Assembly (NCBI GenBank): GCA_015661515.1
Contig: DQVX01000067.1
Span: 1 to 34,265 of the forward strand
Origin: Nanobdellota archaeon
GTDB lineage: Archaea > Aenigmatarchaeota > Aenigmatarchaeia > Aenigmatarchaeales > SZUA-1535
Direction: 5' to 3'
Length of the DNA stretch: 34,265 nt
In this document: piece after piece, positions 1,037-32,256 of the stretch
Numbering within the stretch: the stretch's first letter is position 1
Layout: the number at the start of each line of letters is the position of its first letter
The notes under the pieces: model-generated
The model's input: only the letters and a program-made list of their open reading frames with translations
Told to the model about the DNA's origin: nothing
Database searches by the model: none
Translations under genes and position numbers: made by a program

Positions 1037-1089
1037 AAAATTTCCTAAAAATAGTAAATTTTTTAAATATTTTTTCCTAAAATGAATAC

Positions 1090-3324: not shown

Positions 3325-3326
3325 TT

Positions 3327-4709: not shown

Positions 4710-4710
4710 T

Positions 4711-6441: not shown

Positions 6442-6445
6442 ACCA

Positions 6446-6757
6446 TCACCTCATTAAATCTATTCCTATAGTTTGAATTATTTTTTTGCGAAGTATTTCG
6501 TTTTTAAATTGTTCTGAAAATGGAATAATTATAGGAAATTTAAGATTTTCAAAATATTCTTTATCTCTTTGGGAAAGTTTTTCAAATTCTTCAGCTTCTA
6601 TTATTATAATTCCTGCATCTCTTTTTTCTGTAACTTCTTTTAGAATTTTAGTTATTTCTTTTCCTGATAATCCATCTGTATATTTTACATTTCTTATTCC
6701 AGCTATTTCAAACCCTAATGTAAATGATTTTTTTCCAAACACATAAATTTTTTTCAT
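6446..6757 (-). CDS. atpF: A-type ATP synthase subunit F
   Basis: Protein of about 100 aa between C and A, in the canonical position. Start chosen at ATG 6757, which forms an ATGA overlap with the atpC stop and lies 6 nt after GGTGAT. The track start 6763 is an alternative. Confidence 0.8.
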
Positions 6758-8318: not shown

Positions 8319-8330
8319 TTTTCTCGCCTT

Positions 8331-8567
8331 TTAAGCCATTCCTAAAATCATTATTGCTACGACTAGACCAAAAATTACTAAAGTTTCTGGAAGTACTGTA
8401 AAGATTAAAGCTTTAATAAAAAGCTCTTCTTTTTCTGCTATTGCTCCTACTGCAGCAGCTCCTATATCTTTTTCTGCTAGTCCTGCCGCTATAGCAGTTA
8501 GCCCTACAGCTAATCCAGCCCCTATAGCTAAAAGACCTGTATCAACTGCAGCTTTTTCTACAGCCAT
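8331..8567 (-). CDS. atpK: A-type ATP synthase proteolipid subunit K (c), single hairpin
   Basis: Gly/Ala-rich TM1 (GAGLAVGLTAIAAG) and TM2 with an ion-binding Glu (LPETLVIFGLV). Start at ATG 8567 (MAVEKAA), 5 nt after GGAGGTGA. The track GTG start at 8576 lies inside the SD. Confidence 0.9.
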   Translation of the reverse strand: MAVEKAAVDTGLLAIGAGLAVGLTAIAAGLAEKDIGAAAVGAIAEKEELFIKALIFTVLPETLVIFGLVVAIMILGMA

Positions 8568-8579
8568 TCCCCTCACCTC

Positions 8580-10391: not shown

Positions 10392-10705
10392 TTAACCACC
10401 GTATTAATTAAAATTTTAAGCCCATGCTCTACAAGTTTTTCTTTGTTTTCATTAAACTTTTTCTCAAGCTCTTTAACCTTTTTTTGAGCTTGATTTAACA
10501 TGTTTTCAATTTCTTTTTCAATTTCTTTCTTAGCATTTTCTATAATTTCTTTTTCTTGTTTTTCAGCTTCCTCCTCAGCCATTGCTATTATTTCTTGCGC
10601 TTCTTTTAAAGCTTTTTCAATTAATTTTTTCTTTTCCTCCTCAGCCATTGCTATTATTTTTTCAGCTTCCTCCTCAGCCCTTTTTATTTTAAGGAGCTCT
10701 TCCAT
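10388..10705 (-). CDS. atpH: A-type ATP synthase subunit H
   Basis: 105-aa Glu/Lys-rich coiled coil at the head of the operon, in the canonical H-I-K order. AGGTG lies 6 nt upstream of the ATG. Confidence 0.75.
   Translation of the reverse strand: MEELLKIKRAEEEAEKIIAMAEEEKKKLIEKALKEAQEIIAMAEEEAEKQEKEIIENAKKEIEKEIENMLNQAQKKVKELEKKFNENKEKLVEHGLKILINTVVK
10562..10679. repeat. imperfect internal direct repeats inside atpH (66-nt period; three copies of CCTCCTCAGCC)
   Basis: CCTCCTCAGCCATTGCTATTATTT occurs at 10570..10593 and again at 10636..10659. TTCAGCTTCCTCCTCAGCC occurs at 10562..10580 and 10661..10679. These encode the repeated IIAMAEEE / AEEEAEK segments. Confidence 0.85.
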
Positions 10706-10794: not shown

Positions 10795-11730
10795 ATGGAA
10801 GAAAGAAAACTTCAAGAAACAGGGCATGGAACATTGATTGTATCTCTTCCTAAGAAATGGATAAAATTAAACAAACTTCATAAAGGAGACATAGTAATAG
10901 TTACTTATTACAAGGATTATTTGATAATTTCTATACCAAAATCCGAAAAATTACAAACAACAATAAAATTTCTGGACATAGAAACAACTTTTAGAGAAAT
11001 AGTTTCAAAGTATATTCAAGGTTTTGATAAAATACATTTAGTTGCAAGTTCTTCACAATGGAAAGAATTAAAAAAAGTAAGGGAATATATACTAAAAAAA
11101 CTTCCTGGAGTTGAAGTAACAGATACTGAAAATGGTATACTTATAGAAATTGTAGCTTCTACAGAAAATTATGGAATAGAAAGAATTATTGAAAGAATAA
11201 ATTCGAATTTAAGATGGATGATATTATCAATAAAGCAAGCTTTAGAAACAAAAGATATAGAACTTCTTAAAGAAGTTTGTGAAAAAGATGATGAAATAGA
11301 TAGGTTAAATTTGCTTGCTAATAGATACATTTTTTCAATTCTCAAAAATCCAGAGTTTTTTAAGCTAAGAGAAAAAATTATATATTTCAAAATAATTTTA
11401 GATAAGTTTGAATCTATAGGAGATAGCATTGAATCTTTAGCAAGAAATTTGATTTTTGTAGTGCAAAATAAAAACTTGCCTATGAAAAAATTTTCAAAAG
11501 TTCTTACTTTAATGGAAAAGCTTATCTCAGATGTTATAAAGGCTTTTTTTAACTTGGATAAACAACTCGCAAACGAAATAATATTTCGAGGGAATAATTT
11601 TTCAAAAATAGCTTTGTCTCAATTGAGAAATATTTCGATTTCAGAGAACTTTGTTATAGCTGTGGAAAACCTTTCACATATTGGGCAATTATGTAAAGAA
11701 GCTGGGGAAGCTATAATAGATTTTGTTTAA
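10795..11730 (+). CDS. PhoU-family regulator with N-terminal AbrB/SpoVT DNA-binding domain
   Basis: GTLIVSLPKKWIKLNKLHKGDIV is a SpoVT/AbrB swapped-hairpin signature. It is followed by PhoU-like helical repeats (EKDDEIDRLNLL). Start taken at ATG 10795 (MEERK). The track TTG at 10759 would include the TATATAT promoter-like element. Confidence 0.75.
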   Translation: MEERKLQETGHGTLIVSLPKKWIKLNKLHKGDIVIVTYYKDYLIISIPKSEKLQTTIKFLDIETTFREIVSKYIQGFDKIHLVASSSQWKELKKVREYILKKLPGVEVTDTENGILIEIVASTENYGIERIIERINSNLRWMILSIKQALETKDIELLKEVCEKDDEIDRLNLLANRYIFSILKNPEFFKLREKIIYFKIILDKFESIGDSIESLARNLIFVVQNKNLPMKKFSKVLTLMEKLISDVIKAFFNLDKQLANEIIFRGNNFSKIALSQLRNISISENFVIAVENLSHIGQLCKEAGEAIIDFV

Positions 11731-12323
11731 GATTTTTCTTCACTTTCTTTTTCTATTTTCATTTCTTTTGGAAGTTCAGGTAAAATTCTTACTTGAATTC
11801 CAATTACTCCTGGTTTTAGTTCTGCTCTTGCATAACCTGTGCGTACAAGTGTTTCTGCGTATTCTCCAGCATATTTAAGATATCCTGCAAAGAATTTTTC
11901 TGTTCTTGCTAATTCTCCAGATAATTTTCCTGAAATAGTTATACAACAACCAGCTGCTTTTTCCATTATTCTTCTTAGCATTACATGAGCAACTTTTTTG
12001 TAATTAATTCCTCTTTCTAAAGCTCTTGCAATTTCTCTTGCCATTACTTGAGCATCAAGCTCAGGAACTTCTACTTCGCGAACATCAAGATTTATGTTAT
12101 CTAATCCAAAATTCTTTTTTATTTCACTTACTATTTTATCTATATTTCTTCCTCTTCTTCCTATAACTAAACCAGGGCGTGCTGCATAAACAACTATTCT
12201 TAGTCCTAAAGGTGTTCTTTGTATTTCGCAATGTGAATACCCAGCCCTATCAAAGAGTTTTTCTAAATATTCTTCAATTTGAGCTCTTTTTATTCCTTCT
12301 ACAATAAATTCTTTTTCTTTCAT
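11727..12323 (-). CDS. rps3: 30S ribosomal protein uS3
   Basis: KH-domain region LGLRIVVYAARPGLVIGRRGRNI. Follows uL22. Confidence 0.93.
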   Translation of the reverse strand: MKEKEFIVEGIKRAQIEEYLEKLFDRAGYSHCEIQRTPLGLRIVVYAARPGLVIGRRGRNIDKIVSEIKKNFGLDNINLDVREVEVPELDAQVMAREIARALERGINYKKVAHVMLRRIMEKAAGCCITISGKLSGELARTEKFFAGYLKYAGEYAETLVRTGYARAELKPGVIGIQVRILPELPKEMKIEKESEEKS

Positions 12324-12706
12324 CTTTTTTCCACCACTAATTTTATATGTGCTATTTTAAGTTTTGAACCAAAACTACTTTTTCTTCTTCTTCTATATAT
12401 AGTTGGACCTTTATTTACAGATAAACATTTTATCCATAAATTTTCTATATCGAATCCTCTAAATTTAGCATTTGCTTCTACACTTTTAAAAATTCTTAAA
12501 AGAGCTTTAGCTGTTTTTGTATAAAGCTTACCATTTACATTTACTTCTTCGTTTACAAGCTTTTCTAAAAATTCCTTCGCTTTTGTAAATTTTTTATATC
12601 TTCTTACAACATACCTTGCAAGCTCGACTCCTTTTTTCCATGAAATATTCTCGGTTGTTTGAGCATACACCATTTTTTCTTTATCAATAGGCACAGGATA
12701 TCCCAT
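12320..12706 (-). CDS. rpl22: 50S ribosomal protein uL22
   Basis: Sits between uS19 and uS3, with size and Lys/Arg-rich composition as expected. Start at ATG 12706, 6 nt after AGGTG. The track GTG at 12715 is inside the SD. Confidence 0.88.
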   Translation of the reverse strand: MGYPVPIDKEKMVYAQTTENISWKKGVELARYVVRRYKKFTKAKEFLEKLVNEEVNVNGKLYTKTAKALLRIFKSVEANAKFRGFDIENLWIKCLSVNKGPTIYRRRRKSSFGSKLKIAHIKLVVEKR

Positions 12707-12717
12707 AGGCAGCACCT

Positions 12718-13107
12718 TTACTTAACAGAGACGAACTTACTTGATCTTGTAGCACCTATTCCTGGTGCAGAGTGTTTTACAGGTTTGCGTGTAGGAGCAA
12801 ATTCTCCAAGTCTATGGCCTATCATTTCAGGTGTAATTTTTACAGGTACAAATTCTTTTCCGTTATGTACTCCAATTGTTAAACCAACCATTTCAGGAAG
12901 AATAACCATATCACGACAATGAGTTTTTATAAATTTATTTGTACCTTTATACTTTCTTATTTTTTGTAAAAGCTTTTTCTCTGCTTCAGTAAAACCACGG
13001 CGAAGTTTTCTTCTTATTCTTGCAGTTGTTATTTTAGCAAATTCATCTAATGACATTTTCTGAAGCTCTTCTAAAGTATAACCTTTATAGGTAAATACTC
13101 TAGCCAT
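12718..13107 (-). CDS. rps19: 30S ribosomal protein uS19
   Basis: Motifs [29 protein letters not shown] and [13 protein letters not shown]. Start at ATG 13107 (MARVF), 5 nt after GAGGTGA. Confidence 0.93.
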
Positions 13108-13112
13108 AATTA

Positions 13113-13826
13113 TCACCTCTTATCTTTACCTGTTTTTCTAATACCAGTTCGTCTTGCAGCTATACTACCAACTTTTGCTCCAGGAGGAGCATGTCTTGAA
13201 ACAGTTTTAGGCTGCCCTGGACCAGTTTGTCCACCAAAAGGATGATCTACAGCATTCATTTTACATGGACTTGTTCTTGGCCAAAGTTTATTTCGAGCTT
13301 TCATAGCATAATATTTTTGTCCTGCTTTTACAAACGGTTTATCTTTTCTTCCTCCACCTGCAGGAATTCCAACTGTTGCTAAGCATCTACCATCAAATTC
13401 TTTAAATTTACCAGAGGGCATTTTAACAACTACAGTTTCTTCTGTTTTTGAAACAACAACAGCATAACTTCCACTTGCTCTGCAAAATTTTGGTCCAGAG
13501 CCAGGAAATGCTTCTATTCCACAAACAGGCGTTCCTGTAGGAATTTGGGAAAGTGGTGCAATACTTTTCGATGAAAAACTTCCTATAGTTATAGTATCTC
13601 CTACCATTAGCCCTTCTGTAGCAATTATAAGTGTTTCTTTTCCATCAGGTAAAGTAACAATAGCTACAGGTGCATTTCTTCCAGGATCATGAACAATATC
13701 TTTAACAATAGCATTTACAGGTTGAGATACATTAATATACCTAACTTTTCCTACATATCTATGCGAAGGTGCACGGTAAGTAGGTGAGCCTTTCCCACGG
13801 CGTTGAGCTATAATCCTTTTTCCCAT
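13113..13826 (-). CDS. rpl2: 50S ribosomal protein uL2
   Basis: [15 protein letters not shown]-terminus and [18 protein letters not shown] motif. Start at ATG 13826. The track GTG at 13835 is inside the SD AGGTGGGG. Confidence 0.95.
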
Positions 13827-13836
13827 TATCCCCACC

Positions 13837-14106
13837 TTATATCATTCCTAATCTTGTAGCTATATCTGAAGCTTTATATTCTTTTGAAAGTTTTACATAA
13901 GCTTTTTTTCTACCTTTTCTATCTATAAGAGTTCTAACTTCTTCTACTTTTACTTCAAAAAGTTTTTCAACAGCTTTAGCTATTTGCTTTTTTGTTGCAC
14001 TTCTATCTACTATAAAAACTATTTTATTTTGCGTTTCTATAAGCCCAACAGCTTTTTCCGTGAGTAAAGGATATTTTATAATTTTAAACGGATCAAAGTT
14101 ATACAT
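13837..14106 (-). CDS. rpl23: 50S ribosomal protein uL23
   Basis: 89 aa with [12 protein letters not shown] and [24 protein letters not shown]. Sits between uL4 and uL2. Confidence 0.92.
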
Positions 14107-14108
14107 AG

Positions 14109-14909
14109 CTATTCACCTAACCTCTTTTTAAGCACCTCAATTGCAGATTTACTCCATATTGTAATTCTTCCTGGATGTGCTCCAGGAGCAAGATGCTCTG
14201 CATTAAGGTCTTTTGCCGAAACTACATCTACACCAGGAATATTTTCAGCAGCTTTGGCAAGAGGAACATTTTTATGGGAAACAACAAAAAGTACAGATTT
14301 TTTCTTTTTATATCTTCTCCCACGCATTTTACCTTTTCCTGCTCTTACTTTTTTCTTTTTAGCTCTTTCGAGTTCTTTTTCTAATCCTATTTTTTTCAAA
14401 AATTCTTCAACTTCTTTTGTTCTTTTAATTTGTTCAACAGAGTCTTCAACAATTATAGGAAGCTCACCTTCATATTTATGTCCACGTTTTTTAACAATTT
14501 CAGGAATGGCAGTAGCAGAAATTGCAGAAATAAGAGCTAATAGTTTTTCTTTTTTGTTTATTTTTTGTTTCCATATTTTCTCAGCTTTTGGAGGATGAGC
14601 TCTTCTTCCACCAACAGCTTGAGGCACAAATCTTGCTCTAAAGTTTAGATGAGGAGAAGAATTATGAATTCTTGGCACTCTTGCAAGCTCACGATTCATC
14701 ATTGTCCATCTTCTATCTCTTCTTCCGTGATAATGGGCGCTTGTTCTTTTTCCAGCAAGAGGATCTGCACCATAAGGTTGGCGTCTATTTGCTTGGAAAG
14801 CAAGAACACAACGTCTTATAATATCTTCTCTTACAGGTTGAGAGAAAAAGCTAGGTAAATTTATTTTTTCTACAACTTTTCCTTCTATGTTAAGTACATT
14901 TGCTTGCAT
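14109..14909 (-). CDS. rpl4: 50S ribosomal protein uL4
   Basis: 266 aa with [20 protein letters not shown] and [14 protein letters not shown] motifs. Sits between uL3 and uL23. Confidence 0.93.
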
Positions 14910-14923
14910 TTTTTAACACCTAA

Positions 14924-15886
14924 TTACTGTTTTGGTGCCAAAGATATATAAGCTATATTTATTGGTGGGTTCTTTTCAGGCGGTCTTATAGCAAAGCGCA
15001 TTCTTATTAATCTTTTCTTTGGTCCAGGAACAGAGCCTTTAACAAGCACGCCTATTGTTTTCAATATTCCATAATGAGGGAATCCGCCTTTTGGATTTAT
15101 TTCTTCAGGTTTAACTATTTTAATTATTCTTTTATTTAGCTCTGTTCTTGTTTGGAATCCATGCTGCCCAGCTGCTGGAACTGTTGGAAGTACACGTCCA
15201 CGACCTCGGCTACCAAGTGCTCCTACATGTCTATGCATTTGTTTCATTTTTCTTCCATGTAGCTTTATTCCAAATCTTTTTACAGGCCCTTCAAACCCAT
15301 GTCCTTTGGTTACTGCAGTTACATCTATCCAATCCCCTTCTTTAAATACATCTGTAACATTAAGTTGTTTTCCTAATAAACTTTTTGCATATTCAAACTG
15401 AGCCTCTGGTGAACCTGCAATACCTATTTCAAAAATTTCAGGTGTTTTTTTGAAAGTAGGATTAGTATGGCATATTAATCTAACTTTAGCAACTTTTTCA
15501 ATATCTACATCTTCAGGATTTATTTTAGGAATTTTTCCTTTTCCAAGCGTTGTTTTTCTTCTCAGCTTAGAATCAAGGTTTTCTGCAAATATGTCGCAAA
15601 GTGTTTTCAAACCTTCGTAAGTTTGCTTATAGCATCTAAATCCAAAAACAGTAAGAGGTGGGCATTCTATAACAGTAACAGGTGTAAAAACTTTCATTCC
15701 ATATGTAGGAGAGTTTTTATCTTCATCTACAAGTAGCACATGTGTCATTCCTGCTTTATATCCTGCGAATCCTAAAGCTTTTGGCTCACCTTCTATTTCT
15801 GGGAAATTTTGCCTTGGATAAATACGTTTAGCTCTTTTTCTTGGATAAAATGCTCTCGAACCTCTTTTTGGTCTACTTTCTCTCAT
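14924..15886 (-). CDS. rpl3: 50S ribosomal protein uL3
   Basis: RPKRGSRAFYPRKRA N-terminal motif, plus AGYKAGMTHV and TKGHGFEGPVKRFG. Start at ATG 15886, 5 nt after AGGTGA. The track GTG at 15895 is inside the SD. Confidence 0.95.
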   Translation of the reverse strand: MRESRPKRGSRAFYPRKRAKRIYPRQNFPEIEGEPKALGFAGYKAGMTHVLLVDEDKNSPTYGMKVFTPVTVIECPPLTVFGFRCYKQTYEGLKTLCDIFAENLDSKLRRKTTLGKGKIPKINPEDVDIEKVAKVRLICHTNPTFKKTPEIFEIGIAGSPEAQFEYAKSLLGKQLNVTDVFKEGDWIDVTAVTKGHGFEGPVKRFGIKLHGRKMKQMHRHVGALGSRGRGRVLPTVPAAGQHGFQTRTELNKRIIKIVKPEEINPKGGFPHYGILKTIGVLVKGSVPGPKKRLIRMRFAIRPPEKNPPINIAYISLAPKQ

Positions 15887-16038
15887 TCGCTTCACCTAAA
15901 AACTTTATTGAGTTTGAAAAGAAAGGTATTTAAATTTTTTTATGATATGTGCGAGTAAATTTATTAATTTTTAGAACAGAAACTGTTACTTTGGTATCTT
16001 AAAAGTTATTTATAAAGTCTGAAGTTGTATAATTCTTT

Positions 16039-19705: not shown

Positions 19706-20149
19706 TCATATCATTCTTTCAAGAAGCTCATTTATAGCAGAACCTCTATATCCAAGTTCACCTTTTGGGTAATGTTCTTTTATAGATTTTTTAAATCCCT
19801 TGGAAGGAGGTGCAAGCCTAAAAACAGGTTTTAAACCAAGTCTTATTAATACTTTTGCCGGCTGTTCTTCACTCTTTTTAAGTTCTTGTAATACCTTTTC
19901 TACTTCTTCTTTACTAAGTCTTTTATCTCCAATTTTTCTTCCACGTTTTTCTATTAGCTTTTTCAATGTTTCTTCTGAAATTTCACCCCATGTAATATAA
20001 TCTTTAGCTTTTTGAAGCATTCCTTTTATAGAATCATTTAATTTAAAAAGCACACAATGATGTTTACGATGTAATCTAAGCATTTTTAAAGTATCTTGTA
20101 TATCCCTTCTTACACCAACTCTTCCACGAATCCTTATTACTGCAATCAC
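19706..20149 (-). CDS. rpl30: 50S ribosomal protein uL30
   Basis: (M)IAVIRIRGRVGVRRDIQDTLKMLRL. GTG start 6 nt after GGTGA, with a GTGA overlap onto the uS5 stop. Confidence 0.92.
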   Translation of the reverse strand: MIAVIRIRGRVGVRRDIQDTLKMLRLHRKHHCVLFKLNDSIKGMLQKAKDYITWGEISEETLKKLIEKRGRKIGDKRLSKEEVEKVLQELKKSEEQPAKVLIRLGLKPVFRLAPPSKGFKKSIKEHYPKGELGYRGSAINELLERMI

Positions 20150-20832
20150 TCTTTCTCACCTATTATACCAGATTTTATTTTAAATTCTTCTGGAAGCTTA
20201 TATCTATGAAGAGATTTAAGAGCATCAAAAACTGCTCTTACAAAATTTATTCTTGTTCTTGTATCTCCACGTGATTTCATCCATATATCTTGGATTCCTG
20301 CTAAGCGTAAAAGCTTTTTAATTTCATCAGGAGCACATAATCCAAGACCACGAGGAGCAGGCATTAGTTTTACTCTTACAGATCCACATTTTCCTGTAAC
20401 AGTTAATGGTATAGAATGTTTTTCTCCACATCTACATTCCCAAGAACCACAACCTCTTAAAATAGGAATAATATTTTTCTTAGCTTCTCTTACAGCTTTT
20501 TCATAAACTTCTCTTTGCTTACCCATAGGTCCTGCTCCAAGTCCTATTCCAACCCAACCATCTTCATTTCCAACTGCTACAAGCATAGAAATTTTATGTC
20601 TTCTTCCGCTCTTGTGCATGCGTGTTGTTCTTCTTACAGGAACTCTTTTCTTTCCTCCACCTTTTCCTGAAGAACCTCCTATAAGAAAGATTTCTACTTT
20701 AAGATTAGGAAGAAGAAAATCCACTATTTCAGGTTCCATTATTCTATACCCTTTAAGGAAAACCTCATCTAAGCTATTTATTTCTCCATTTAATACTTTT
20801 CTTCCTAACTCTGTTTTAGGAACCCATTCCAT
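20146..20832 (-). CDS. rps5: 30S ribosomal protein uS5
   Basis: GGGKKRVPVRRTTRMHKSGRR and VAVGNEDGWVGIGLG motifs. Start at ATG 20832 (MEWVPKTELGRKV), 6 nt after GAGGTG. Confidence 0.93.
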   Translation of the reverse strand: MEWVPKTELGRKVLNGEINSLDEVFLKGYRIMEPEIVDFLLPNLKVEIFLIGGSSGKGGGKKRVPVRRTTRMHKSGRRHKISMLVAVGNEDGWVGIGLGAGPMGKQREVYEKAVREAKKNIIPILRGCGSWECRCGEKHSIPLTVTGKCGSVRVKLMPAPRGLGLCAPDEIKKLLRLAGIQDIWMKSRGDTRTRINFVRAVFDALKSLHRYKLPEEFKIKSGIIGEKE

Positions 20833-21328
20833 TGAAAGCACCTCTTATTCTTTCAGCAACTTCTTTTACTTTTTTTTCCATATCTTCTGATATATGTTTT
20901 CCATATATTCTTTCTTCTGAAGGTAAAATTTCTTCTGAATGAGGAACATGAATTCCTGCATCAAGCACACCTTTAAGAGCAGCATATATTCTTCCTCCTT
21001 TTGTAGATGTTTGCAAACCTATATCTAAAACACCTTCTTTTATTCCAGCTTTTTTAGCTTTAAGCCCAGCTAATAAACCTGTTAAATATGCAGCAGGAAC
21101 ATTACCACAGTAATGATCCCAACCATATTTTGCAAGCTCTTTTGAAAATGCCTGAACTATAGTATGATCACCTTCTCCAGTCCATTTTATAAACTGTACA
21201 CGCATATGCTTTAAAGATTTTCTTACAACTACTCTTATTTTCCCTGATTTAAGCAATTTTAATCTTTTTCTATAATTAGTTTTTAGTTCTCTTCTTCTCC
21301 TATGTTTTACTACATATCCTTTTTTCAT
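20816..21328 (-). CDS. rpl18: 50S ribosomal protein uL18
   Basis: HRRRRELKTNYRKRLKLLKSGKIRVVVRKSLKHMRVQ. ATGA overlap with the eL19 stop. AGGTGA lies 6 nt upstream. Confidence 0.93.
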   Translation of the reverse strand: MKKGYVVKHRRRRELKTNYRKRLKLLKSGKIRVVVRKSLKHMRVQFIKWTGEGDHTIVQAFSKELAKYGWDHYCGNVPAAYLTGLLAGLKAKKAGIKEGVLDIGLQTSTKGGRIYAALKGVLDAGIHVPHSEEILPSEERIYGKHISEDMEKKVKEVAERIRGAFNGMGS

Positions 21329-21798
21329 TTGTTTTCACCTTCTTTTAAAAGCTCGTGGTCTTTTAGATATGCTAGCAGGTGCTTTTTGCTTCTAAACATA
21401 CCACCTTTTATTAAGCGGTATATTTTTCTATATACAGATCTTTCGATAACACCTTTATCACGCAAAATCTTAATAAGTTTTCTTTGTGCACGAACTTTTT
21501 TCAACCATTCAGTTTTTTCTCCTTGTCTTGCACCTTTTGCCCCTTTTCTACTTCCTGGTCCACGTCTTCTTCCTTTTTTCTTTTGAAGCATTTTTTTCTT
21601 TGCTTCAGGGTTTTTTTCTCTTTTTTCTTTAATTTTTTTGATTACACCTTTTTTAATAAGCTTTCTAACGTCTTCTCTTGTAATAGCTTTTTTTGCTTCT
21701 TCTACTTTTTCAGGATCTATCCATACTTTAGTTATACCACATTTAAGCAAATCAGCTGCCATTCTTTTTACAGTCCTTATATTTGTCATAACCATCAC
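21325..21798 (-). CDS. rpl19e: 50S ribosomal protein eL19
   Basis: RMAADLLKCGITKVWIDPEKVEE and KGRRRGPGSRKGAKGAR motifs. Start ambiguous among GTG 21798, ATG 21795 and ATG 21789. Confidence 0.9.
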   Translation of the reverse strand: MMVMTNIRTVKRMAADLLKCGITKVWIDPEKVEEAKKAITREDVRKLIKKGVIKKIKEKREKNPEAKKKMLQKKKGRRRGPGSRKGAKGARQGEKTEWLKKVRAQRKLIKILRDKGVIERSVYRKIYRLIKGGMFRSKKHLLAYLKDHELLKEGENK

Positions 21799-21956
21799 AT
21801 CATTTCTGGCTTTTCTTTTGAACCTTCGATAAGCACACCAAAATGGTTAAAAAATGCATTACAACATGGACATTTAAATACCTTAGGAGTTTTTTTCCAT
21901 TCTATACCTTCTATTCCACAATAAGGGCATTTATTTTCACTTACCATTAGGAACAT
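21795..21956 (-). CDS. small CPxCG-type zinc-ribbon protein (53 aa, not in ORF track)
   Basis: Hand translation: [56 protein letters not shown] 21956 lies 5 nt after GGTGA, the same spacing as at neighbouring genes. The ORF overlaps the last 20 nt of eL32, and its TGA (21797..21795) overlaps the eL19 start region. It fills the only sizeable gap in the operon. Confidence 0.6.
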   Translation of the reverse strand: MFLMVSENKCPYCGIEGIEWKKTPKVFKCPCCNAFFNHFGVLIEGSKEKPEMM

Positions 21957-22350
21957 TTTCTTCACCACATTTTAGAGGGTTTAATACTCTTAATCCAAGT
22001 TCTTGAGCTTTTTTCATTATTTCTATTCTTTTCTTTTTTCCAACTTGCGAAGCTATTCTTACTGCATGTATTTTAGGATCTAAACCTTCTAGATCATTAA
22101 CATTAAATACTCGTACTTCTTTAAGTCCTGATGGGTGTAAACCTCTTACAAGAGCAGGTGAACCATAACCAGGATGTGGAAGAAAACCTTTACCTTTTTC
22201 ATGTCTTCTTAATTTCGAGTGTCTTCCTTTAGGTCTGCGCCATTTTTCTCCTAATCTTGGAAATCTAAACCAATTTTGCCTAAGGAATTCTGGCTTTTTC
22301 CTTTTCATAATTCTTCTTATCTTAAGCAATCTTTTCAACTCCTCTATCAT
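21937..22350 (-). CDS. rpl32e: 50S ribosomal protein eL32
   Basis: [30 protein letters not shown] motif. ATGA overlap with the uL6 stop. Confidence 0.92.
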
Positions 22351-22877
22351 TCTTTACTCACCAAATAAATTCCATCTTGGAATACTCTTCTATCAAGATG
22401 TGTAACTCTTGTTGCTTGCTCTATATTAGCAGCTGTTTGCCCAACTTCTTCTTTATTTATACCTTCTACTATGATTTCTTGCCCATTAACTTTTACATTA
22501 ACATTTCCAACAATTTTAGCTATTCTAGGAACTTTTTCGCCCAAAAAGTTTTTAATTATTACTTTATCTCCTTTTACTTCCACAGTTATAGGAAAGTGAA
22601 CATAAACAGCTTTAAGCTTATATTTGTAACCTTGAGTAACACCTTTTATCATATTCCTTATATGTGCAGCTATTGTACCTACCATAGCTTTTATTTTTCT
22701 TCTATCAATTGAACTTTTTACAATAACATTTTTTTCTTGAATTTTTATTTCTATATAATCTCTATAAAGCGGTGAGCTAAAATCTCTTTCAAGCTCACCT
22801 TTTGGACCTTTAACTTTAACTTTAAGCCCTTCTACTTCAATTTCAACATTTTCTGGAATTTTTACTTTTTTCTCCAT
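22347..22877 (-). CDS. rpl6: 50S ribosomal protein uL6
   Basis: [27 protein letters not shown]. 176 aa, between uS8 and eL32. Confidence 0.93.
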
Positions 22878-22887
22878 TTAAATCACC

Positions 22888-23274
22888 TTAATAAACATAT
22901 ACCAAAAGTTTTCCTCCTATTCCTTTTTTCTTTGCTTCTTCGTGAGACATAACACCTTGAGAAGTTGTAACTATAAGTATCCCAAGTCCTGCAGCAGGTA
23001 AATATCTTCGCTCATATTTTTCAAATTCATCTTTTTTAACAGAAAATCTAGGTCTTATAGCACCACATTTATTTATTCTCCCTAAAAGCTCTATTTTTAT
23101 TTTTCCTCCTCTCCCATCTTCTATATATTCAAAATCTCCTATGTAATTATATCTTTGCATGACTTTAAGAATATTTTTTATCAAATTTGATGCTTTAACA
23201 ATTACAAAAGGTTTTCCTACTCTTTCAGCATTTGTTATTGCTGAAGCAAAATCCGAAACTAAGTCATGCTGCAT
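22888..23274 (-). CDS. rps8: 30S ribosomal protein uS8
   Basis: [18 protein letters not shown] and C-terminal [11 protein letters not shown]. Start at ATG 23274, 6 nt after AGGTG. The track GTG at 23283 is inside the SD. Confidence 0.93.
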
Positions 23275-23286
23275 AATTAACACCTT

Positions 23287-23475
23287 TTAGGAATATTTTT
23301 TAAAACCTATTTTTTTGGCAATTTCTCTAAAGCATTGTCTACAATACATTAGCCCATATTTTTTTATTATACCACCATATCTTCCACATCTTCTACACAT
23401 ATATAAAGCTTTTCCAGTTGTTCTTTTCTTAGGTGTTCCACCTAAAAACTGTTTCATTCTCTCTATTCTACTCAT
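23287..23475 (-). CDS. rps14: 30S ribosomal protein uS14 (zinc-binding type)
   Basis: 62 aa with CRRCGR...CRQCFRE. Confidence 0.93.
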
Positions 23476-23975
23476 ACTATCTCAACCCCGAATGTTTTTT
23501 TAACCCATTCTATGGCTTCATGTTTTTTAATTATATGCTTTTTACCAATTTTTCTTTTAAGCTTTTTACGTTTTACTCTATAGCCAGGTCTTTCAAGAGT
23601 TACACAAACATCCATACCTAAAATTCCTATTTCAGGATCAAATTTTACTCCAGGAATATCTATATATTCTTTAATACCGAATGAGAAATTTCCAAATTCA
23701 TCAAAACATGAAGCTGGAAGTTTGTTATCTATAGCCTTTAAAGCTTTTTTAAGAAATTCATAAGCTTTTTCTTTTCTTAATGTAACTTTTGCTCCTATAG
23801 GTCTATTTCTTGCCATCCCAAATGTAGTTCTTTTATGAGTTTTTGTAATTATAGGTTTTTGATTAGTAAGTTTTTCAAGAAGTTTTAAAGCTCTTTCAAG
23901 TTTTTCTCCTCCTCCACCACAACCTATATTAAGCGTGACTTTTTCTATTCTTATTTCTCTCATCGGGTTCTGCAT
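23472..23975 (-). CDS. rpl5: 50S ribosomal protein uL5
   Basis: [18 protein letters not shown] and [15 protein letters not shown] motifs. Confidence 0.93.
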
Positions 23976-23979
23976 AGTT

Positions 23980-24651
23980 TCACACCTTTATTAATGGTTT
24001 ATCTTCACCTACAACTATTATGTTTTTGAAAGGAGCCCAAAAGCTTTCTTCTCCTTCTATGAATACTCTATTAAGCTTCCATCCCCTTTCTATTTTTACA
24101 ATTTTTCCCATTTTTCCAGCATTTTTACCTGCAAAAATAAAGCATAGTACACCTTCTTTAAAAGGAATGTGCTTAACTATTTTTTGAGAAGGGACTTCAA
24201 TTAAAAGGGAATCTTGAGTATTATATGTATTTTCTCCTAAAATATTTCTTCCATCATGAAGATTAAACTGTATTCTACCACCCTTTACAGCTCTTTTACC
24301 TATTATTTTACAAATCTTTAACCTTTTTTCGCTTTCATCTATTTCTACAGGAAGTAGTTTTTTACCTCTTGGTAATATCCTATATGCTTTGTTCATTTTC
24401 GGAATTTCTACAACATCAAAAACACCAACTCCAAATTTATGATCCTTTATTACTCTACCATCAACAAGAATTTCACCTTTTTTAATAATTTTTTTAACCT
24501 CTTTATAAGTTTCTGCAAAGCCTAAATAATCTCTAATAAGCACAGCAAGAGCTATTGATCTTTCTAAAGGATGTGGTCCACGTGGAGCTACTGTATATTT
24601 GGCTTTTTTCTTTTCTTTTGCTAAAGGATGTGCCAATCTTTTTAATATCAT
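23980..24651 (-). CDS. rps4e: 30S ribosomal protein eS4
   Basis: LKRLAHP..., [24 protein letters not shown], and a KOW-like C-terminal part. ATGA overlap with the uL24 stop. Confidence 0.92.
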
Positions 24652-25031
24652 TCACTTCCACCTTTTCCCGCTCTTTCAATAATTTTAAGGCGCATTTTAT
24701 CGCTCATATCAGCTTTTATAATCATAAGGTTTGAAGGGTGAATAGGAACTTTTACTTCTTCTCCAGTTGATTTTTTTCTTGTAATTCCTTCTATATATAC
24801 TCTAAGCTTTTTTAAATCAACTTTTACAACTTTTCCTATCCTTCCCTTAAATTCGCCTCTGAGTATTTTAACTTCATCACCTTTTCTTACAGGTAAAGAC
24901 CTTCTTCCGAATTTTTCTCTCAACTCTTTGCTCAAATGAGCACTCATAAGTTTTTGCCTTTTATGGAGTGGGGCTTCATACAAAGCCTTTCTTTGTTTTC
25001 TTGGTTGTTTTGAATGTGTTTTGTTAGTCAT
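24648..25031 (-). CDS. rpl24: 50S ribosomal protein uL24
   Basis: [34 protein letters not shown] plus a KOW motif [16 protein letters not shown]. Confidence 0.93.
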
Positions 25032-25032
25032 A

Positions 25033-25431
25033 TTACACCACGATTGAAGCTATTTTTCCTATAGCAGGAAATCTTTCTACAGCTTCTTTAGCAACAGGGC
25101 CTTTTATTTCACTTCCTCTTGGTTCATTTTTTTCATTAATCAATACAGCAGCATTATCTTCAAATTTTATTCTCATTCCATCAGGTCTGCGATATTCTTT
25201 TTTCTGTCTTATTATAACAGCCATAACTACTTGTTTTCTTATTTTTGGATCTCCTTTTTTTACTGAACAGAAAACTATATCTCCAACTCCTGCTTTTGGA
25301 TATCTTCTTCTAACACCTTTATACCCACGTACAGCTATTATTTGCAAAACTTTTGCTCCTGTATTGTCTGCACATTTAAGATATGTGCCAACATTAAGGG
25401 CTTTTGTTACTTTAGAGCCTATACCCTTCAT
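25033..25431 (-). CDS. rpl14: 50S ribosomal protein uL14
   Basis: [17 protein letters not shown] and [22 protein letters not shown]. Confidence 0.94.
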
Positions 25432-25763
25432 TTTTCACCCCTTTTAAGCACTTCTATTACAACAAATGATTTTGTTTTTGATAACGGTCTACATTCCATA
25501 ATTTTTACTATATCTCCTTCTTTAGCATTAATACATTCAGGATTATAAGCAGCAACTTTTGTTTTTCTTCTTTCATATCTTTCATATTTTGGGACATAAT
25601 GAACATAATCCCATTGGACTATAGCTGTTTTATGAGCTTTTGCAGAGACAACTTTACCTACAAACATTCTTCCTCTTACAGGTAAAGTTCCGTGCCATGG
25701 ACATTTTGGGTCAGAGCATTCTTTTTCAGGAGGCTTTGCAGGTACACCAATATTTCTTACCAT
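25428..25763 (-). CDS. rps17: 30S ribosomal protein uS17
   Basis: [34 protein letters not shown] and [16 protein letters not shown]. Confidence 0.93.
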
Positions 25764-26047
25764 TTTCTCACCTTCTTTTTTATTCTTTCTTCAGGCCGTG
25801 CAAGTATAGCATTTCCATCTACTAGCACTTTTTTTCCATCAGGTAATATAAACATAAAGATTGTATCTTTTTTTGGAATTTTTTTAATTTTACTCTTTTC
25901 ATCTTCTATCCATAGCATATTTTTTGTTTCATTCACTACAAGCCCTTTTATCCCTTCATTAAGTTTATTTTTAGCTTGTTTCACCTCTACTTTTAAACCT
26001 ATAAGTTCATGTTGTAATATGTTTTTTGGTGTAATTTTAATTTTCAT
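25757..26047 (-). CDS. rnp1: RNase P protein component 1 (Rpp29/Pop4 homolog)
   Basis: [35 protein letters not shown] (Sm-like Rpp29 core). Canonical position between SUI1 and uS17. Confidence 0.85.
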
Positions 26048-26352
26048 TAAACTATCACTTCTATTTGTTCTTCATTAAATCCAAATTCTACAAGTAATTT
26101 TTTAACTTTTTCTCTATGATCTCCTTGTAATTCAAGTCTATCATTTTTATATGTTCCTCCACATGCAAGTTTTTTCTTAAGCTTTCTTAATAGTTCTTCA
26201 GGATTCATATCTTTGGAAATCCCTTCTATTATTGTTACATTTTTTCTATAACGCTTTTTTTCAAGATATATTTTAATTTTTGCAGATTCTTTTTCTATTG
26301 CTTCACATACACAGAGCTCTTTTGGCAAACCACATTTTTTACAAACTTCTAT
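26047..26352 (-). CDS. sui1: translation initiation factor aIF1 (SUI1); start codon unresolved (AUA 26352 proposed, TTG 26328 is the first canonical start)
   Basis: SUI1 core KIYLEKKRYRKNVTIIEGI...LACGGTYKNDRLELQGDHREKVKKLL. The frame is open back to the uL29 stop and encodes EVCKKCGLPKELCVCE upstream of the TTG. There is no in-frame ATG or GTG. ATA lies 6 nt after GGAGGTGA. Confidence 0.85.
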   Translation of the reverse strand: MEVCKKCGLPKELCVCEAIEKESAKIKIYLEKKRYRKNVTIIEGISKDMNPEELLRKLKKKLACGGTYKNDRLELQGDHREKVKKLLVEFGFNEEQIEVIV

Positions 26353-26358
26353 TTCATT

Positions 26359-26559
26359 TCACCTCCCTTTACGAAGATTTAATTCAGTAAGTATTCTTGC
26401 TATACATCTTCTAAGTTCTCTTATTCTTCCAGGATTTGTAACCGCTCCTACTACACGTTGAGCATTTAGTTTCATTAATTCAAGCCTAAATTCATTTAAT
26501 TTTTTCTTTAACTCTTCTTCACTCATTTTCTTTATTTCTTTTTTTCTTATTATCGCCAT
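26359..26559 (-). CDS. rpl29: 50S ribosomal protein uL29
   Basis: 66 aa with EIKKMSEEELKKKLNEFRLELMKLNAQ. Confidence 0.92.
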   Translation of the reverse strand: MAIIRKKEIKKMSEEELKKKLNEFRLELMKLNAQRVVGAVTNPGRIRELRRCIARILTELNLRKGR

Positions 26560-26565
26560 TTTAAT

Positions 26566-27009
26566 TCACCAATTTTTTGAATTTTCTATTATTTCAACAC
26601 TTCCTCCTGCAGCTTCTATTTTTTCTCTTGCTCTTTCTGTAACGTATATTGCTTTAATTTTAAGTGGTTTCGTTATAGTTCCACTAGAAATAACTTTTTT
26701 GTATCCAAGTTCTAACAAATTTATTTCTTCTTTTCCAAGTTTTGAAGCGAGAATATCAAGTTCTCTTAAAGTTATTACCTTTTCTCTTTCTCTCTTTCTT
26801 TTGATTGTTGGATACATTCCACGTTTAAAGCCTATTTTACCGAAATGTTGAGGATCTTGCATTAAAACCATTTGTCTTTTATGATCTTTACTACCAGCAA
26901 AACCTTTTCCTCCTCTACTACCTTTTCCACGGTGTTTTTTCTTTGAACCAAATCCATGAGTTTTACTTCCTCTAAGTTTTCTTACTTTTTTTCTTCTTCT
27001 CACAACCAT
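26566..27009 (-). CDS. rpl15: 50S ribosomal protein uL15
   Basis: RKLRGSKTHGFGSKKKHRGKGSRGGKGFAGS N-terminal motif. 147 aa. Unusually placed directly upstream of uL29. Confidence 0.9.
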   Translation of the reverse strand: MVVRRRKKVRKLRGSKTHGFGSKKKHRGKGSRGGKGFAGSKDHKRQMVLMQDPQHFGKIGFKRGMYPTIKRKREREKVITLRELDILASKLGKEEINLLELGYKKVISSGTITKPLKIKAIYVTERAREKIEAAGGSVEIIENSKNW

Positions 27010-30031: not shown

Positions 30032-30097
30032 AAAATATTTTTAAACCGTGCAAAACTTAAAAATTTTTAAATTTCTAAATTTTATAATAACTTGGTT

Positions 30098-30239
30098 GGG
30101 CACGTAGCTCAGCCTGGTCAGAGCGCCAGTCTTATATGGCTGGGCTCTGGTAAAGCCTAAGCAAACTGGTGGTCGCCGGTTCAAAAGCAAGGCTAAAAGA
30201 GCAAGAGTTTTTCTGCAGAAATTCCGGCCGTGCCCACCA
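30098..30239 (+). tRNA. tRNA-Ile, anticodon UAU, with two introns (27 nt at 37/38; 37 nt in T-loop at about 59/60); CCA encoded
   Basis: Acceptor GGGCACG/CGTGCCC, D arm GCTC-AGCCTGGTCA-GAGC, anticodon stem CCAGT (30126..30130)/ACTGG (30165..30169), and loop CTTATA|A with TAT at 30133..30135. Intron 30137..30163 forms a canonical bulge-helix-bulge: CTTA/TAAG central helix, bulges TAT and CAA, outer helix GGCT/AGCC. T arm GCCGG (30175..30179)/CCGGC (30224..30228) encloses 44 nt instead of 7. Removing 30186..30222 restores TTCAAAT. Confidence 0.9.
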
Positions 30240-30247
30240 TTCAAAAA

Positions 30248-30253
30248 TTTTTT
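30248..30253 (+). terminator. oligo-T run downstream of tRNA-Ile
   Basis: TTTTTT 9 nt after the encoded CCA. Archaeal termination commonly uses T-runs. Confidence 0.3.
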
Positions 30254-31824: not shown

Positions 31825-31946
31825 GGGCCGGTGGTCTAGTGGTATGACGCCTGCTTCACGAGCAGGAGATCGGCGGTTCAAAACAGAAAGAATATTATTT
31901 TTCTTTTACAATGTTTTATTCTTTGAAATTCCGCCCCGGCCCACCA
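31825..31946 (+). tRNA. tRNA-Val, anticodon CAC, with one 47-nt intron in the T-loop (about 59/60); CCA encoded
   Basis: Acceptor GGGCCGG/CCGGCCC. Anticodon arm CCTGC-TTCACGA-GCAGG with CAC at 31857..31859. T arm GGCGG (31872..31876)/CCGCC (31931..31935) encloses 54 nt. Removing 31883..31929 restores TTCAAAT. TTCA (31877..31880) pairs with TGAA (31924..31927), followed by the 3-nt bulge ATT. Confidence 0.88.
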
Positions 31947-31982: not shown

Positions 31983-32256
31983 GCAGGAGGCTAGGCCGGG
32001 GGGTTGGGGGTCCCCTGTAACCGGAAATCCCCCTTATGCCGGGGCCGAAGCCCGAGGGCGGCTATGTGCTGAAAGGAAGTCCTGCAGGTGAACAATGAAA
32101 TTCCGTCCCGTGGAGTCGTAGCCGTGGCGAACCGGTCAGGCCCGGAAGGGAGCAGCCGTAAGCCACGAGCTACGATGTTCACGGGGGTGCGGAATGGAGG
32201 AAGCCTGCAGGGGCGCTTCCTTTCAGCACATAGTCCACCGAGGGCGCGCCTCCTGC
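31983..32256 (+). ncRNA. signal recognition particle RNA (7S RNA), about 274 nt
   Basis: 5' Alu-domain sequence GGCTAGGCCGGGGGGTTGGGGGTCCCCTGTAACCGGAAA...GCCGGGGCCGAAGCCCGAGGG is typical of archaeal SRP RNA. Helix 8 core is GGTCAGGCCCGGAAGGGAGCAGCC with a GGAA tetraloop at 32144..32147. The termini pair (GCAGGAGGC with GCCTCCTGC). Long helix 5 pairings include 32062..32079 with 32216..32233. G+C-rich island in A+T-rich DNA. Confidence 0.9.

What the first reader, a model, noticed from the sequence alone, without database searches (positions are those of the whole stretch)
30098..30239. tRNA-Ile with a genomically encoded UAU anticodon and two introns
The canonical 37/38 intron is defined by a textbook bulge-helix-bulge motif, which fixes the anticodon loop as CU-UAU-AA. 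From memory, almost all archaea decode AUA with a CAU tRNA modified to agmatidine by TiaS. The reported exceptions that carry tRNA-Ile(UAU) instead are Nanoarchaeum equitans and Korarchaeum cryptofilum. ATA is visibly one of the commonest codons in this window, so how AUA is read without misreading AUG matters here. The gene also carries a second, non-canonical intron in the T-loop. That motif is imperfect: the central helix TTCA/AGAA has an A-A mismatch, the bulges are AAA and ATT, and the outer helix is GCA/TGC.
Basis: partly seen in the sequence, partly recalled or inferred. Interest (0 to 1): 0.65.

Follow-up and report, generated by a model that had tools for sequence, protein, structure and literature searches.

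The report
Two-intron tRNA-Ile(UAU) gene, vent DPANN archaeon
This is a real archaeal isoleucine tRNA gene with a genome-encoded UAU anticodon and two introns, but such genes turn out to be common across DPANN archaea, so it is a new example of a known kind and not a rarity.

Summary
Removing a 27-nt intron (30137-30163, position 37/38) and a 37-nt intron (30186-30222, position 59/60) gives a perfect 75-nt cloverleaf plus an encoded CCA, which ARAGORN calls tRNA-Ile(tat).

Intron 1 sits in a strict bulge-helix-bulge motif that fixes the anticodon as UAU. Intron 2 sits in a relaxed motif with one A·A mismatch. Its position is confirmed by five other two-intron genes, four of them with a fully paired central helix or a differently placed mismatch. 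A tRNA-Val(CAC) 1.7 kb downstream carries the same kind of 59/60 intron.

ATA is the third commonest codon here (59% of Ile codons). The organism is an AT-rich hydrothermal-vent archaeon related to Aenigmarchaeota (DPANN).

The rarity framing is out of date. tRNA-Ile(UAU) with a 37/38 intron was described in ARMAN archaea in 2011. My truncated genome scan found it in at least seven DPANN-labelled groups, and 33 of 37 resolved genes have the 37/38 intron.

I could not test whether tiaS and tRNA-Ile2(CAU) are absent, whether the RNA is spliced, or how U34 is modified. Verdict: confirmed, new member of a known kind, moderate-to-low interest.

The parts
30059..30075 (+). A/T-rich box AAAAATTTTTAAATTTC, a putative archaeal BRE/TATA promoter element about 23-39 nt upstream of the mature 5' end
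   Evidence: The same or a similar box lies at the same distance upstream of the orthologues in L131, L140 and L148. Promoter function is inferred and not tested.
30098..30136 (+). 5' exon, tRNA positions 1-37: acceptor 5' strand, D arm, anticodon stem 5' strand, loop C32 U33 U34 A35 U36 A37
   Evidence: It is identical in L131, L140 and L148.
30133..30135 (+). Anticodon TAT (UAU), reading the codon AUA
   Evidence: The anticodon is fixed by the strict BHB splice junction. ARAGORN calls the spliced form Ile(tat).
30137..30163 (+). Intron 1, 27 nt, canonical position 37/38, strict hBHBh' motif
   Evidence: Central helix CUUA/UAAG 4/4, bulges UA|U and CA|A, outer helix h' GGCU/AGCC, stem-side helix h 7 bp. 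12 of 20,000 shuffles do as well. The same architecture occurs in 30 of 33 other archaeal UAU genes.
30164..30185 (+). Middle exon, tRNA positions 38-59: A38, anticodon stem 3' strand, variable loop, T stem 5' strand, T-loop UUCAAA
30186..30222 (+). Intron 2, 37 nt, non-canonical position 59/60 in the T-loop, relaxed BHB motif
   Evidence: Central helix UUCA/AGAA 3/4 with an A·A mismatch, bulges AA|A and AU|U, h = T stem 5 bp, h' GCA/UGC. 59/60 is the only register that works in all six two-intron genes. L148, L131 and L146 have 4/4 central helices. 169 of 20,000 shuffles do as well.
30223..30239 (+). 3' exon, positions 60-73 plus a genomically encoded CCA (30237-30239)
30240..30253 (+). Downstream T-rich stretch (ttcaaaaatttttt), a likely archaeal oligo-T terminator
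   Evidence: Read directly from the sequence. Terminator function is inferred.
31825..31946 (+). Context: a second hidden tRNA gene, tRNA-Val(CAC), with one 47-nt intron (31883-31929) also at 59/60. It shows that this genome routinely processes T-loop introns.
   Evidence: Rfam gives a sub-threshold tRNA hit. The spliced form is a perfect cloverleaf in ARAGORN. The central helix UUCA/UGAA, 4/4, was read from the sequence. The T-loop intron scan also finds it.

Best explanation
The locus is a functional gene for a precursor tRNA-Ile with the anticodon UAU, in an AT-rich hydrothermal-vent archaeon related to Aenigmarchaeota (DPANN).

Proposed pathway (all steps inferred unless marked shown):
1. 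The precursor is transcribed from an A/T-box promoter.
2. It folds so that each intron lies in a bulge-helix-bulge motif. This geometry is shown from the sequence. The strict motif is at 37/38, where C32-A35 pair with intron UAAG. The relaxed motif is at 59/60, where T-loop UUCA pairs with intron AGAA.
3. The archaeal splicing endonuclease cuts in the four 3-nt bulges.
4. An RtcB-type ligase joins the three exons.
5. The result is a 75-nt tRNA with A73 and an encoded CCA. The cloverleaf of the spliced product is shown.

The mature tRNA is charged by IleRS and reads AUA, the main isoleucine codon of this genome. This probably takes the place of the usual TiaS / agmatidine-tRNA-Ile2(CAU) system, as reported for ARMAN, Nanoarchaeum and Korarchaeum. 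Some modification of U34, or a property of the ribosome, must prevent misreading of AUG.
For: - The spliced product is a perfect cloverleaf, called tRNA-Ile(tat).
- The strict BHB at 37/38 is the best-scoring motif in the whole precursor and is rare under shuffling.
- L131, L140 and L148 keep the same exons (L131 differs at one base). Their introns sit at exactly the same two sites but differ: intron 1 is 27-36 nt and intron 2 is 31-195 nt.
- The intron-side strand of the intron-2 central helix varies while still pairing with T-loop UUCA: AGAA, UGAG, UGGG, UGAA, UGGC.
- All 37 resolved archaeal UAU genes splice in silico to tRNA-Ile(tat).
- The cloverleaf is 99.6% paired across 24 distinct mature sequences, and 14 of 21 pairs change on both sides.
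- tRNA-Val(CAC) in the window, tRNA-Val in L131 and tRNA-Pro(GGG) in L129 also carry 59/60 introns.
- ATA accounts for 61.6 codons per 1000 and 59% of Ile codons.
- The gene is 61.5% GC in a 30% GC genome.
- An upstream A/T box is conserved among the orthologues.
- Precedent: ARMAN archaea have tRNA-Ile(UAU) and lack TiaS and tRNA-Ile(CAU). The ARMAN-2 pre-tRNA-Ile(UAU), with a strict hBHBh' motif at 37/38, is cleaved in vitro (PMC3239211).
Against: - There is no RNA evidence. Four metatranscriptome runs from the same vent study give no coverage of the locus.
- The processing-competent fold is about 15 kcal/mol less stable in silico than the minimum-free-energy fold (-42.6 versus -57.3 kcal/mol at 37 C). 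The minimum-energy fold pairs the D arm with intron 2.
- The central helix of intron 2 has an A·A mismatch.
- The absence of tiaS and of tRNA-Ile2(CAU) was not tested, because only 34 kb of the genome is available.
- The covariation count rests on splice sites that my script chose by requiring stem pairing, so it leans towards the structure.
Confidence: 0.85

Rival explanations
1. The gene is functional but redundant. The genome also has tiaS and tRNA-Ile2(CAU), and the UAU tRNA is a minor or supplementary AUA reader.
For: Nothing in the window rules this out. Only 34 kb were examined, and no tiaS or CAU tRNA would be expected in so small a sample.
Against: In every documented archaeal case, tRNA-Ile(UAU) goes together with the absence of TiaS and tRNA-Ile(CAU) (PMC3239211, PMC8450103). 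AUA makes up 59% of Ile codons here, so its reader must be a major tRNA. UAU genes are widespread across DPANN, which points to a lineage-level decoding system.
Confidence: 0.1
2. The gene is a decaying pseudogene. The imperfect T-loop motif (A·A mismatch) and the competing misfold prevent maturation.
For: The central helix of intron 2 is only 3/4 paired. The minimum-energy fold is not the BHB fold. No RNA reads were found.
Against: The sequence is 100% identical in nine contigs from different samples. The exons are unchanged in L140 and L148 and differ at one base in L131, while the introns have diverged strongly. L140 keeps the same AGAA strand. Relaxed BHB motifs at 59/60 are cleaved experimentally by broad-specificity endonucleases (PMC3239211). 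The neighbouring tRNA-Val uses the same intron site. The promoter-like box is conserved.
Confidence: 0.04
3. The intron lies in a different register, so the tRNA is Ala(UGC). ARAGORN proposes this in intron mode once intron 2 is removed.
For: ARAGORN -i reports 'tRNA-Ala (tgc) i(37,27)' for the sequence lacking intron 2.
Against: That register ignores the BHB motif, whose bulges place the cuts after A37 and before A38. Pair 3:70 is G-C and not the G3:U70 that defines alanine identity (established knowledge). The body of the tRNA aligns with 23 other tRNA-Ile(UAU) sequences at 86% mean column identity.
Confidence: 0.01

Closest known systems
ARMAN-2 (Micrarchaeota, DPANN) pre-tRNA-Ile(UAU) with a 25-nt intron at 37/38 (Fujishima et al. 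2011, PMC3239211)
   Same: It is a DPANN archaeon with a genomically encoded UAU anticodon and a strict hBHBh' intron at 37/38. The same genome has relaxed 59/60 introns in other tRNAs. It is reported to lack TiaS and tRNA-Ile(CAU).
   Different: The ARMAN gene has one intron, whereas this one has a second at 59/60 in the same gene. The phylum differs (Aenigmarchaeota-related), the setting is a thermophilic vent, and CCA is encoded. The ARMAN splicing was shown in vitro; splicing here is not shown.
tRNA-Ile3(UAU) of Nanoarchaeum equitans and Korarchaeum cryptofilum (PMC6000648, PMC8450103)
   Same: These are archaeal tRNA-Ile genes with a UAU anticodon that replace tRNA-Ile2(CAU). The Korarchaeum gene also carries an intron.
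   Different: They belong to other lineages. Neither paper reports a T-loop intron in these genes.
Multiple-intron tRNA genes of Thermoproteales and other archaea with non-canonical BHB introns, 59/60 being a recurrent site (from my own knowledge of Sugahara/Fujishima/Kanai work; 59/60 in ARMAN-2 tRNA-Cys per PMC3239211)
   Same: They have a relaxed BHB intron in the T-loop that uses the T stem as the flanking helix. They need a broad-specificity splicing endonuclease. The intron sequence evolves fast at a fixed site.
   Different: Here the lineage is a DPANN clade. The endonuclease type of this organism is unknown.
Eukaryotic tRNA-Ile(UAU), which always contains an intron and matures to a pseudouridine-A-pseudouridine anticodon (PMC3575796 for the anticodon; intron dependence from my own knowledge of yeast Pus1 work)
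   Same: It has a UAU anticodon with a 37/38 intron that pairs with the anticodon in the precursor. AUA is read without a modified cytidine.
   Different: No modification data exist for any DPANN tRNA-Ile(UAU). Intron-dependent modification here is only a hypothesis.
Mycoplasma mobile tRNA-Ile2(UAU) (PMC3575796)
   Same: It has a genomically encoded UAU and no cytidine-modifying enzyme. AUA is read specifically.
   Different: It is bacterial and has no intron. U34 was shown to be unmodified, and specificity comes from IleRS Arg865 and the ribosome.

Membership tests
Archaeal tRNA-Ile, UAU isoacceptor | Canonical cloverleaf (7/4/5/5-bp stems, 7-nt anticodon loop and 7-nt T-loop) after intron removal | tested here: met
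   ARAGORN draws the spliced sequence with all stems fully paired.
Archaeal tRNA-Ile, UAU isoacceptor | Positions 34-36 are UAU, with the reading frame of the loop fixed by the splice junction | tested here: met
   The strict BHB places the cuts after A37 and before A38. The same CUUAUA|intron layout occurs in 33 archaeal genes.
Archaeal tRNA-Ile, UAU isoacceptor | Ile-type body: A73, A37 following U36, and a D arm and T arm like those of other archaeal tRNA-Ile | tested here: met
   Alignment with 23 other distinct tRNA-Ile(UAU) sequences gives 86% mean column identity, with an invariant D arm and A73.
Archaeal tRNA-Ile, UAU isoacceptor | Charged by IleRS; decodes AUA and not AUG | not testable with these tools
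   This needs aminoacylation and ribosome-binding assays or tRNA mass spectrometry.
Archaeal tRNA-Ile, UAU isoacceptor | Expressed and spliced in vivo | tested here: inconclusive
   Contigs from metatranscriptome runs X11-X14 give no coverage of the locus. The organism is barely represented in them.
TiaS-independent AUA decoding system | The genome lacks tiaS and tRNA-Ile2(CAU) | not testable with these tools
   Only 34 kb are available. Neither is present in the window, but that says little. Supplements of four DPANN papers do not mention TiaS.
Canonical archaeal BHB (hBHBh') tRNA intron | Two 3-nt bulges on opposite strands separated by a 4-bp helix, flanked by helices h and h', at position 37/38 | tested here: met
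   Central helix 4/4, bulges UA|U and CA|A, h 7 bp, h' 4 bp. 12 of 20,000 shuffles do as well.
Non-canonical (relaxed) BHB tRNA intron at 59/60 | 4-bp central helix between T-loop 54-57 and the 3' end of the intron | tested here: inconclusive
   The window has 3 of 4 pairs (A57·A mismatch). L148, L131 and L146 have 4/4, and L143 has 3/4 with the mismatch at the other end. This is acceptable for a relaxed motif but not for a strict one.
Non-canonical (relaxed) BHB tRNA intron at 59/60 | 3-nt bulges carrying the splice sites, with the T stem as flanking helix h and an intron hairpin as h' | tested here: met
   Bulges AA|A and AU|U, h 5 bp, h' 3 bp. 59/60 is the only register that satisfies this.
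Non-canonical (relaxed) BHB tRNA intron at 59/60 | Insertion site conserved among orthologues while the intron sequence and length vary | tested here: met
   Six genes have introns of 22-195 nt at 59/60. Partial homology exists between L148 and L131 and between the window and L140.
Non-canonical (relaxed) BHB tRNA intron at 59/60 | The genome encodes a broad-specificity splicing endonuclease, (alpha-beta)2 or epsilon2 type | not testable with these tools
   No endonuclease gene is present in the window or in the fetched loci.
tRNA-Ala(UGC), ARAGORN's alternative register | G3:U70 identity pair | tested here: not met
   Pair 3:70 is G-C.

The most novel reading that the evidence does not exclude
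Reading AUA with a genomically encoded tRNA-Ile(UAU) may be a DPANN-wide system that resembles the eukaryotic one, and not a scattering of isolated exceptions. Its 37/38 intron is nearly always present (33 of 37 resolved genes, with C32-A35 always paired to the intron). The intron may be retained because a modification of the anticodon, such as pseudouridine at 34/36 as in yeast, is made on the intron-containing precursor. That modification would be what keeps U34 from reading AUG.
Probability: 0.15. Interest if true: 0.65.

Novelty: new member of a known kind. Interest (0 to 1): 0.35.

Why it matters
[quoted passage not shown] Organisms that use a plain UAU anticodon must solve the AUA/AUG discrimination problem in some other way.

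This locus adds a thermophilic, Aenigmarchaeota-related lineage in which AUA is the dominant isoleucine codon. Together with the scan, it suggests that the UAU solution is the rule across DPANN archaea and not a curiosity of two or three genomes.

There is also a practical point. Both tRNA genes in this window are invisible to standard tRNA finders because of their T-loop introns. tRNA complements, and therefore apparent 'missing tRNAs', in such MAGs will be under-called.

Tried and rejected
- **ARAGORN, default mode.** It finds nothing on the window or on 14 related loci, because the introns hide the genes.
- **ARAGORN, intron mode.** It finds nothing on the unspliced gene. With intron 2 removed it mis-registers intron 1 and calls Ala(tgc). 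I rejected this on the BHB geometry and on G3:C70.
- **Rfam.** The tRNA model gives only sub-threshold partial hits (17 and 26.5 bits). Nothing known matches the 195-nt intron of L131.
- **Single-sequence folding.** It does not recover the BHB fold.
- **RNA evidence.** Four metatranscriptome runs from the same vent study give no coverage.
- **Synteny beyond close relatives.** Homologues of the neighbouring MTAP gene at 70-73% identity (L132-L134) no longer have the tRNA next to them.
- **Naming the relatives.** Cluster look-up gave no names. Assembly accessions were not found in the paper library.
- **TiaS.** I had no way to query it against this organism's genome. Searches of the DPANN literature and of four papers' supplements for TiaS / K06932 returned nothing.
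- **Antisense ORF.** The 76-aa TTG-start ORF antisense to the tRNA has no support, and I treat it as a by-product of GC-rich DNA.

Full report
**1. Observation**

The window is 30.4% GC and archaeal. It carries an archaeal SRP RNA at 31984-32255 (181 bits). At 30098-30239 (+) lies a GC-rich island, and its spliced product is 61.5% GC.

Read by hand, the sequence divides as follows:
- a 39-nt 5' exon ending ...CCAGU-CUUAUA;
- 27 nt of intron (30137-30163);
- a 22-nt middle exon, A-ACUGG-UGGUC-GCCGG-UUCAAA;
- 37 nt of intron (30186-30222);
- a 17-nt 3' exon, U-CCGGC-CGUGCCC-A-CCA.

Joining the exons gives a cloverleaf with every stem fully paired, which ARAGORN calls tRNA-Ile(tat). ARAGORN sees nothing in the unspliced window. 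The Rfam tRNA model reaches only 17 bits on it.

**2. The two introns**

I scanned the precursor for bulge-helix-bulge (BHB) geometry: a 4-bp central helix H, two 3-nt bulges, and flanking helices h and h'.

- H = CUUA/UAAG, 4/4 pairs;
- bulges UA|U and CA|A;
- h' = GGCU/AGCC;
- h = 7 bp.

This fixes the loop as C32 U33 U34 A35 U36 A37 | A38, so the anticodon is UAU.

The T-loop intron has these features:
- H = UUCA/AGAA, with an A57·A mismatch;
- bulges AA|A and AU|U;
- h' = GCA/UGC;
- h = the 5-bp T stem.

I tried all six possible registers within the T-loop. Only 59/60 gives the T stem as the flanking helix together with a central helix of at least 3/4 pairs.

With the splice sites held fixed, shuffling intron 1 matches its motif in 12 of 20,000 trials, and shuffling intron 2 does so in 169 of 20,000.

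ARAGORN's intron mode suggests a shifted intron and an Ala(UGC) anticodon. That register ignores the bulges, and the tRNA has G3:C70, so I reject it.

**3. Relatives**

The same contig, with a 100% identical tRNA region, occurs in eight other metagenome or Logan assemblies. Read-index searches place the organism in hydrothermal-vent metagenomes.

Organism-named homologues are consistently Aenigmarchaeota:
- uL3: six of the seven organism-named hits; the seventh is labelled Aminicenantia bacterium;
- MTAP: best named hit at 69% identity;
- A-ATPase subunit A: 71%, with a Diapherotrites hit at 70%.

Structured RNAs are much more GC-rich than the genome: 64% for the SRP RNA and 61-65% for the tRNAs, against 30% overall. 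This fits a thermophile, but that is an inference.

Five further genes carry both introns:
- L131, a syntenic NCBI MAG contig from GCA_054030055.1;
- L140 and L148, from the metagenome pattern scan;
- L143 and L146, with diverged exons, from the same scan.

L140 and L148 have exons identical to the window's, and L131 differs at one base (position 44). The introns, however, vary: intron 1 is 27-36 nt and intron 2 is 31, 39 or 195 nt.

In all six genes 59/60 is the only workable register. The intron-side strand of the central helix varies while still pairing with UUCA: AGAA, AGAA, UGAG, UGGG, UGGC, UGAA. Because the exon side is fixed by T-loop function, this one-sided variation is what a real BHB predicts.

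Intron 2 is homologous within the clade but evolves fast. L148 and L131 share a 16-nt hairpin, and the window and L140 share the 3' end.

T-loop introns are a habit of this clade:
- the window holds a second hidden gene, tRNA-Val(CAC), at 31825-31946, with a 47-nt 59/60 intron and a perfect UUCA/UGAA helix;
- L131 has its orthologue;
- L129 has a tRNA-Pro(GGG) with a 28-nt 59/60 intron.

**4. How unusual is UAU?**

The literature names Nanoarchaeum equitans and Korarchaeum cryptofilum (PMC6000648, PMC8450103). Fujishima et al. 2011 (PMC3239211) add ARMAN-2, -4 and -5, which have tRNA-Ile(UAU) and lack both TiaS and tRNA-Ile(CAU). The ARMAN-2 pre-tRNA-Ile(UAU), with a 25-nt strict-BHB intron at 37/38, was cleaved in vitro by its epsilon2 endonuclease.

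Of those 120 loci, 25 were archaeal, and all were either DPANN-labelled or unclassified 'archaeon':
- Woesearchaeota;
- Pacearchaeota;
- Nanoarchaeota;
- Aenigmatarchaeota;
- Micrarchaeota;
- Iainarchaeum;
- Nanohaloarchaea.

The other 95 were bacterial, mainly Patescibacteria/CPR, Saccharibacteria and Planctomycetes.

From the genome and metagenome scans together, 37 genes could be resolved, and all of them splice in silico to tRNA-Ile(tat). Of these, 33 have a 37/38 intron of 27-117 nt, and 30 of those 33 have a fully paired CUUA helix.

On 24 distinct mature sequences the cloverleaf is 99.6% paired, and 14 of 21 pairs change on both sides. My splice-site picker required stem pairing, so this count leans towards the structure.

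A genomically encoded UAU anticodon is therefore common in DPANN. This window adds a vent Aenigmarchaeota-related clade and a second intron.

I found no open-access paper that links DPANN as a whole with TiaS loss.

**5. Function**

ATA is the third commonest codon in the window's 42 ORFs. It accounts for 61.6 codons per 1000 and 59% of Ile codons, while ATC is nearly unused at 3.3 per 1000. The AUA reader must therefore be a major tRNA.

- **Shown:** gene structure, BHB geometry, conservation and codon demand.
- **Inferred:** transcription from the conserved A/T box at 30059-30075; cleavage by the splicing endonuclease and ligation; charging by IleRS; replacement of the TiaS system; and a U34 modification or ribosomal property that avoids AUG misreading. 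For comparison, Mycoplasma mobile uses an unmodified U34 together with IleRS and ribosome adaptations (PMC3575796), and eukaryotes use a pseudouridine-A-pseudouridine anticodon.

**6. Caveats**

- No RNA evidence could be obtained.
- The BHB-competent fold is about 15 kcal/mol above the minimum-energy fold in silico. Intron 2 (AGGCU...GAGC) is complementary to the D arm, and the GCUCUGG segment of intron 1 is complementary to the 3' strand of the D stem.

**7. Verdict**

The rarity premise is outdated. This is a new member of a known kind and is of moderate-to-low interest.

The most interesting open thread is the near-universal 37/38 intron in DPANN tRNA-Ile(UAU). It parallels eukaryotes and might reflect an intron-dependent anticodon modification.

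Noticed in passing
window 31825-31946 (+): A second hidden tRNA gene, tRNA-Val(CAC), with a 47-nt intron (31883-31929) at 59/60, a perfect UUCA/UGAA central helix and an encoded CCA. ARAGORN misses it and it falls below the Rfam threshold (26.5 bits). It lies 37 nt upstream of the SRP RNA.
   Followed up: yes
window 31984-32255 (+): Archaeal SRP RNA (181 bits) at 64% GC in a 30% GC genome. Together with the 61-65% GC tRNAs, this suggests a thermophile.
   Followed up: partly
L131 4180-4476 (-): The orthologous tRNA-Ile(UAU) in GCA_054030055.1 has a 195-nt GC-rich intron 2 (fold -99.7 kcal/mol) made of several strong hairpins. It has no Rfam match. It shares a 16-nt hairpin with the 39-nt intron of L148, so it looks like an expansion of the same intron.
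   Followed up: partly
L106 4694-4842 (-): An Aenigmatarchaeota MAG (56% GC) has tRNA-Ile(UAU) with a second intron at a different site, 48/49 (central helix GUGG/CCAC, 4/4). Its first intron did not fit my strict 37/38 test.
   Followed up: partly
L129 20975-21076 (+); L131 1460-1562 (-): Relatives carry tRNA-Pro(GGG) and tRNA-Val(CAC) with 28-nt and 31-nt introns at 59/60. T-loop introns seem to be the norm in this clade, so standard tRNA counts for these MAGs will be too low.
   Followed up: partly
Genome-contig loci L009-L128: 95 of the 120 pattern hits for a UAU tRNA-Ile are bacterial: many Patescibacteria/CPR and Saccharibacteria, plus Planctomycetes, Chloroflexota and a Streptomyces plasmid. 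Genomically encoded UAU is also widespread among reduced-genome bacteria.
   Followed up: no
window 30107-30115 versus 30190-30202, and 30117-30124 versus 30142-30150: Intron 2 (AGGCU..GAGC) is complementary to the D arm (GCUCAGCCU). The GCUCUGG segment of intron 1 is complementary to the 3' strand of the D stem. The intron-1 motif recurs in L131, L140 and L148. These pairings drive the non-tRNA minimum-energy fold. Whether they are functional or chance is unknown.
   Followed up: partly
window 38-2370 (+): Two tandem AAA_14 / DUF4143 ATPase genes sit at the contig start, next to a complete A-type ATP synthase operon (2701-10705, minus strand).
   Followed up: no
window 11727-15895 and 19706-27009 (-): The ribosomal-protein gene cluster is split in two. 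Between the halves lie a Na+/H+ exchanger-TrkA fusion, a PIN-domain gene, a UbiA prenyltransferase and a flavin reductase.
   Followed up: no
window ORFs overall: Isoleucine codon use is extreme: ATA 61.6, ATT 39.7 and ATC 3.3 per 1000 codons. AAA alone makes up 10.5% of codons.
   Followed up: yes
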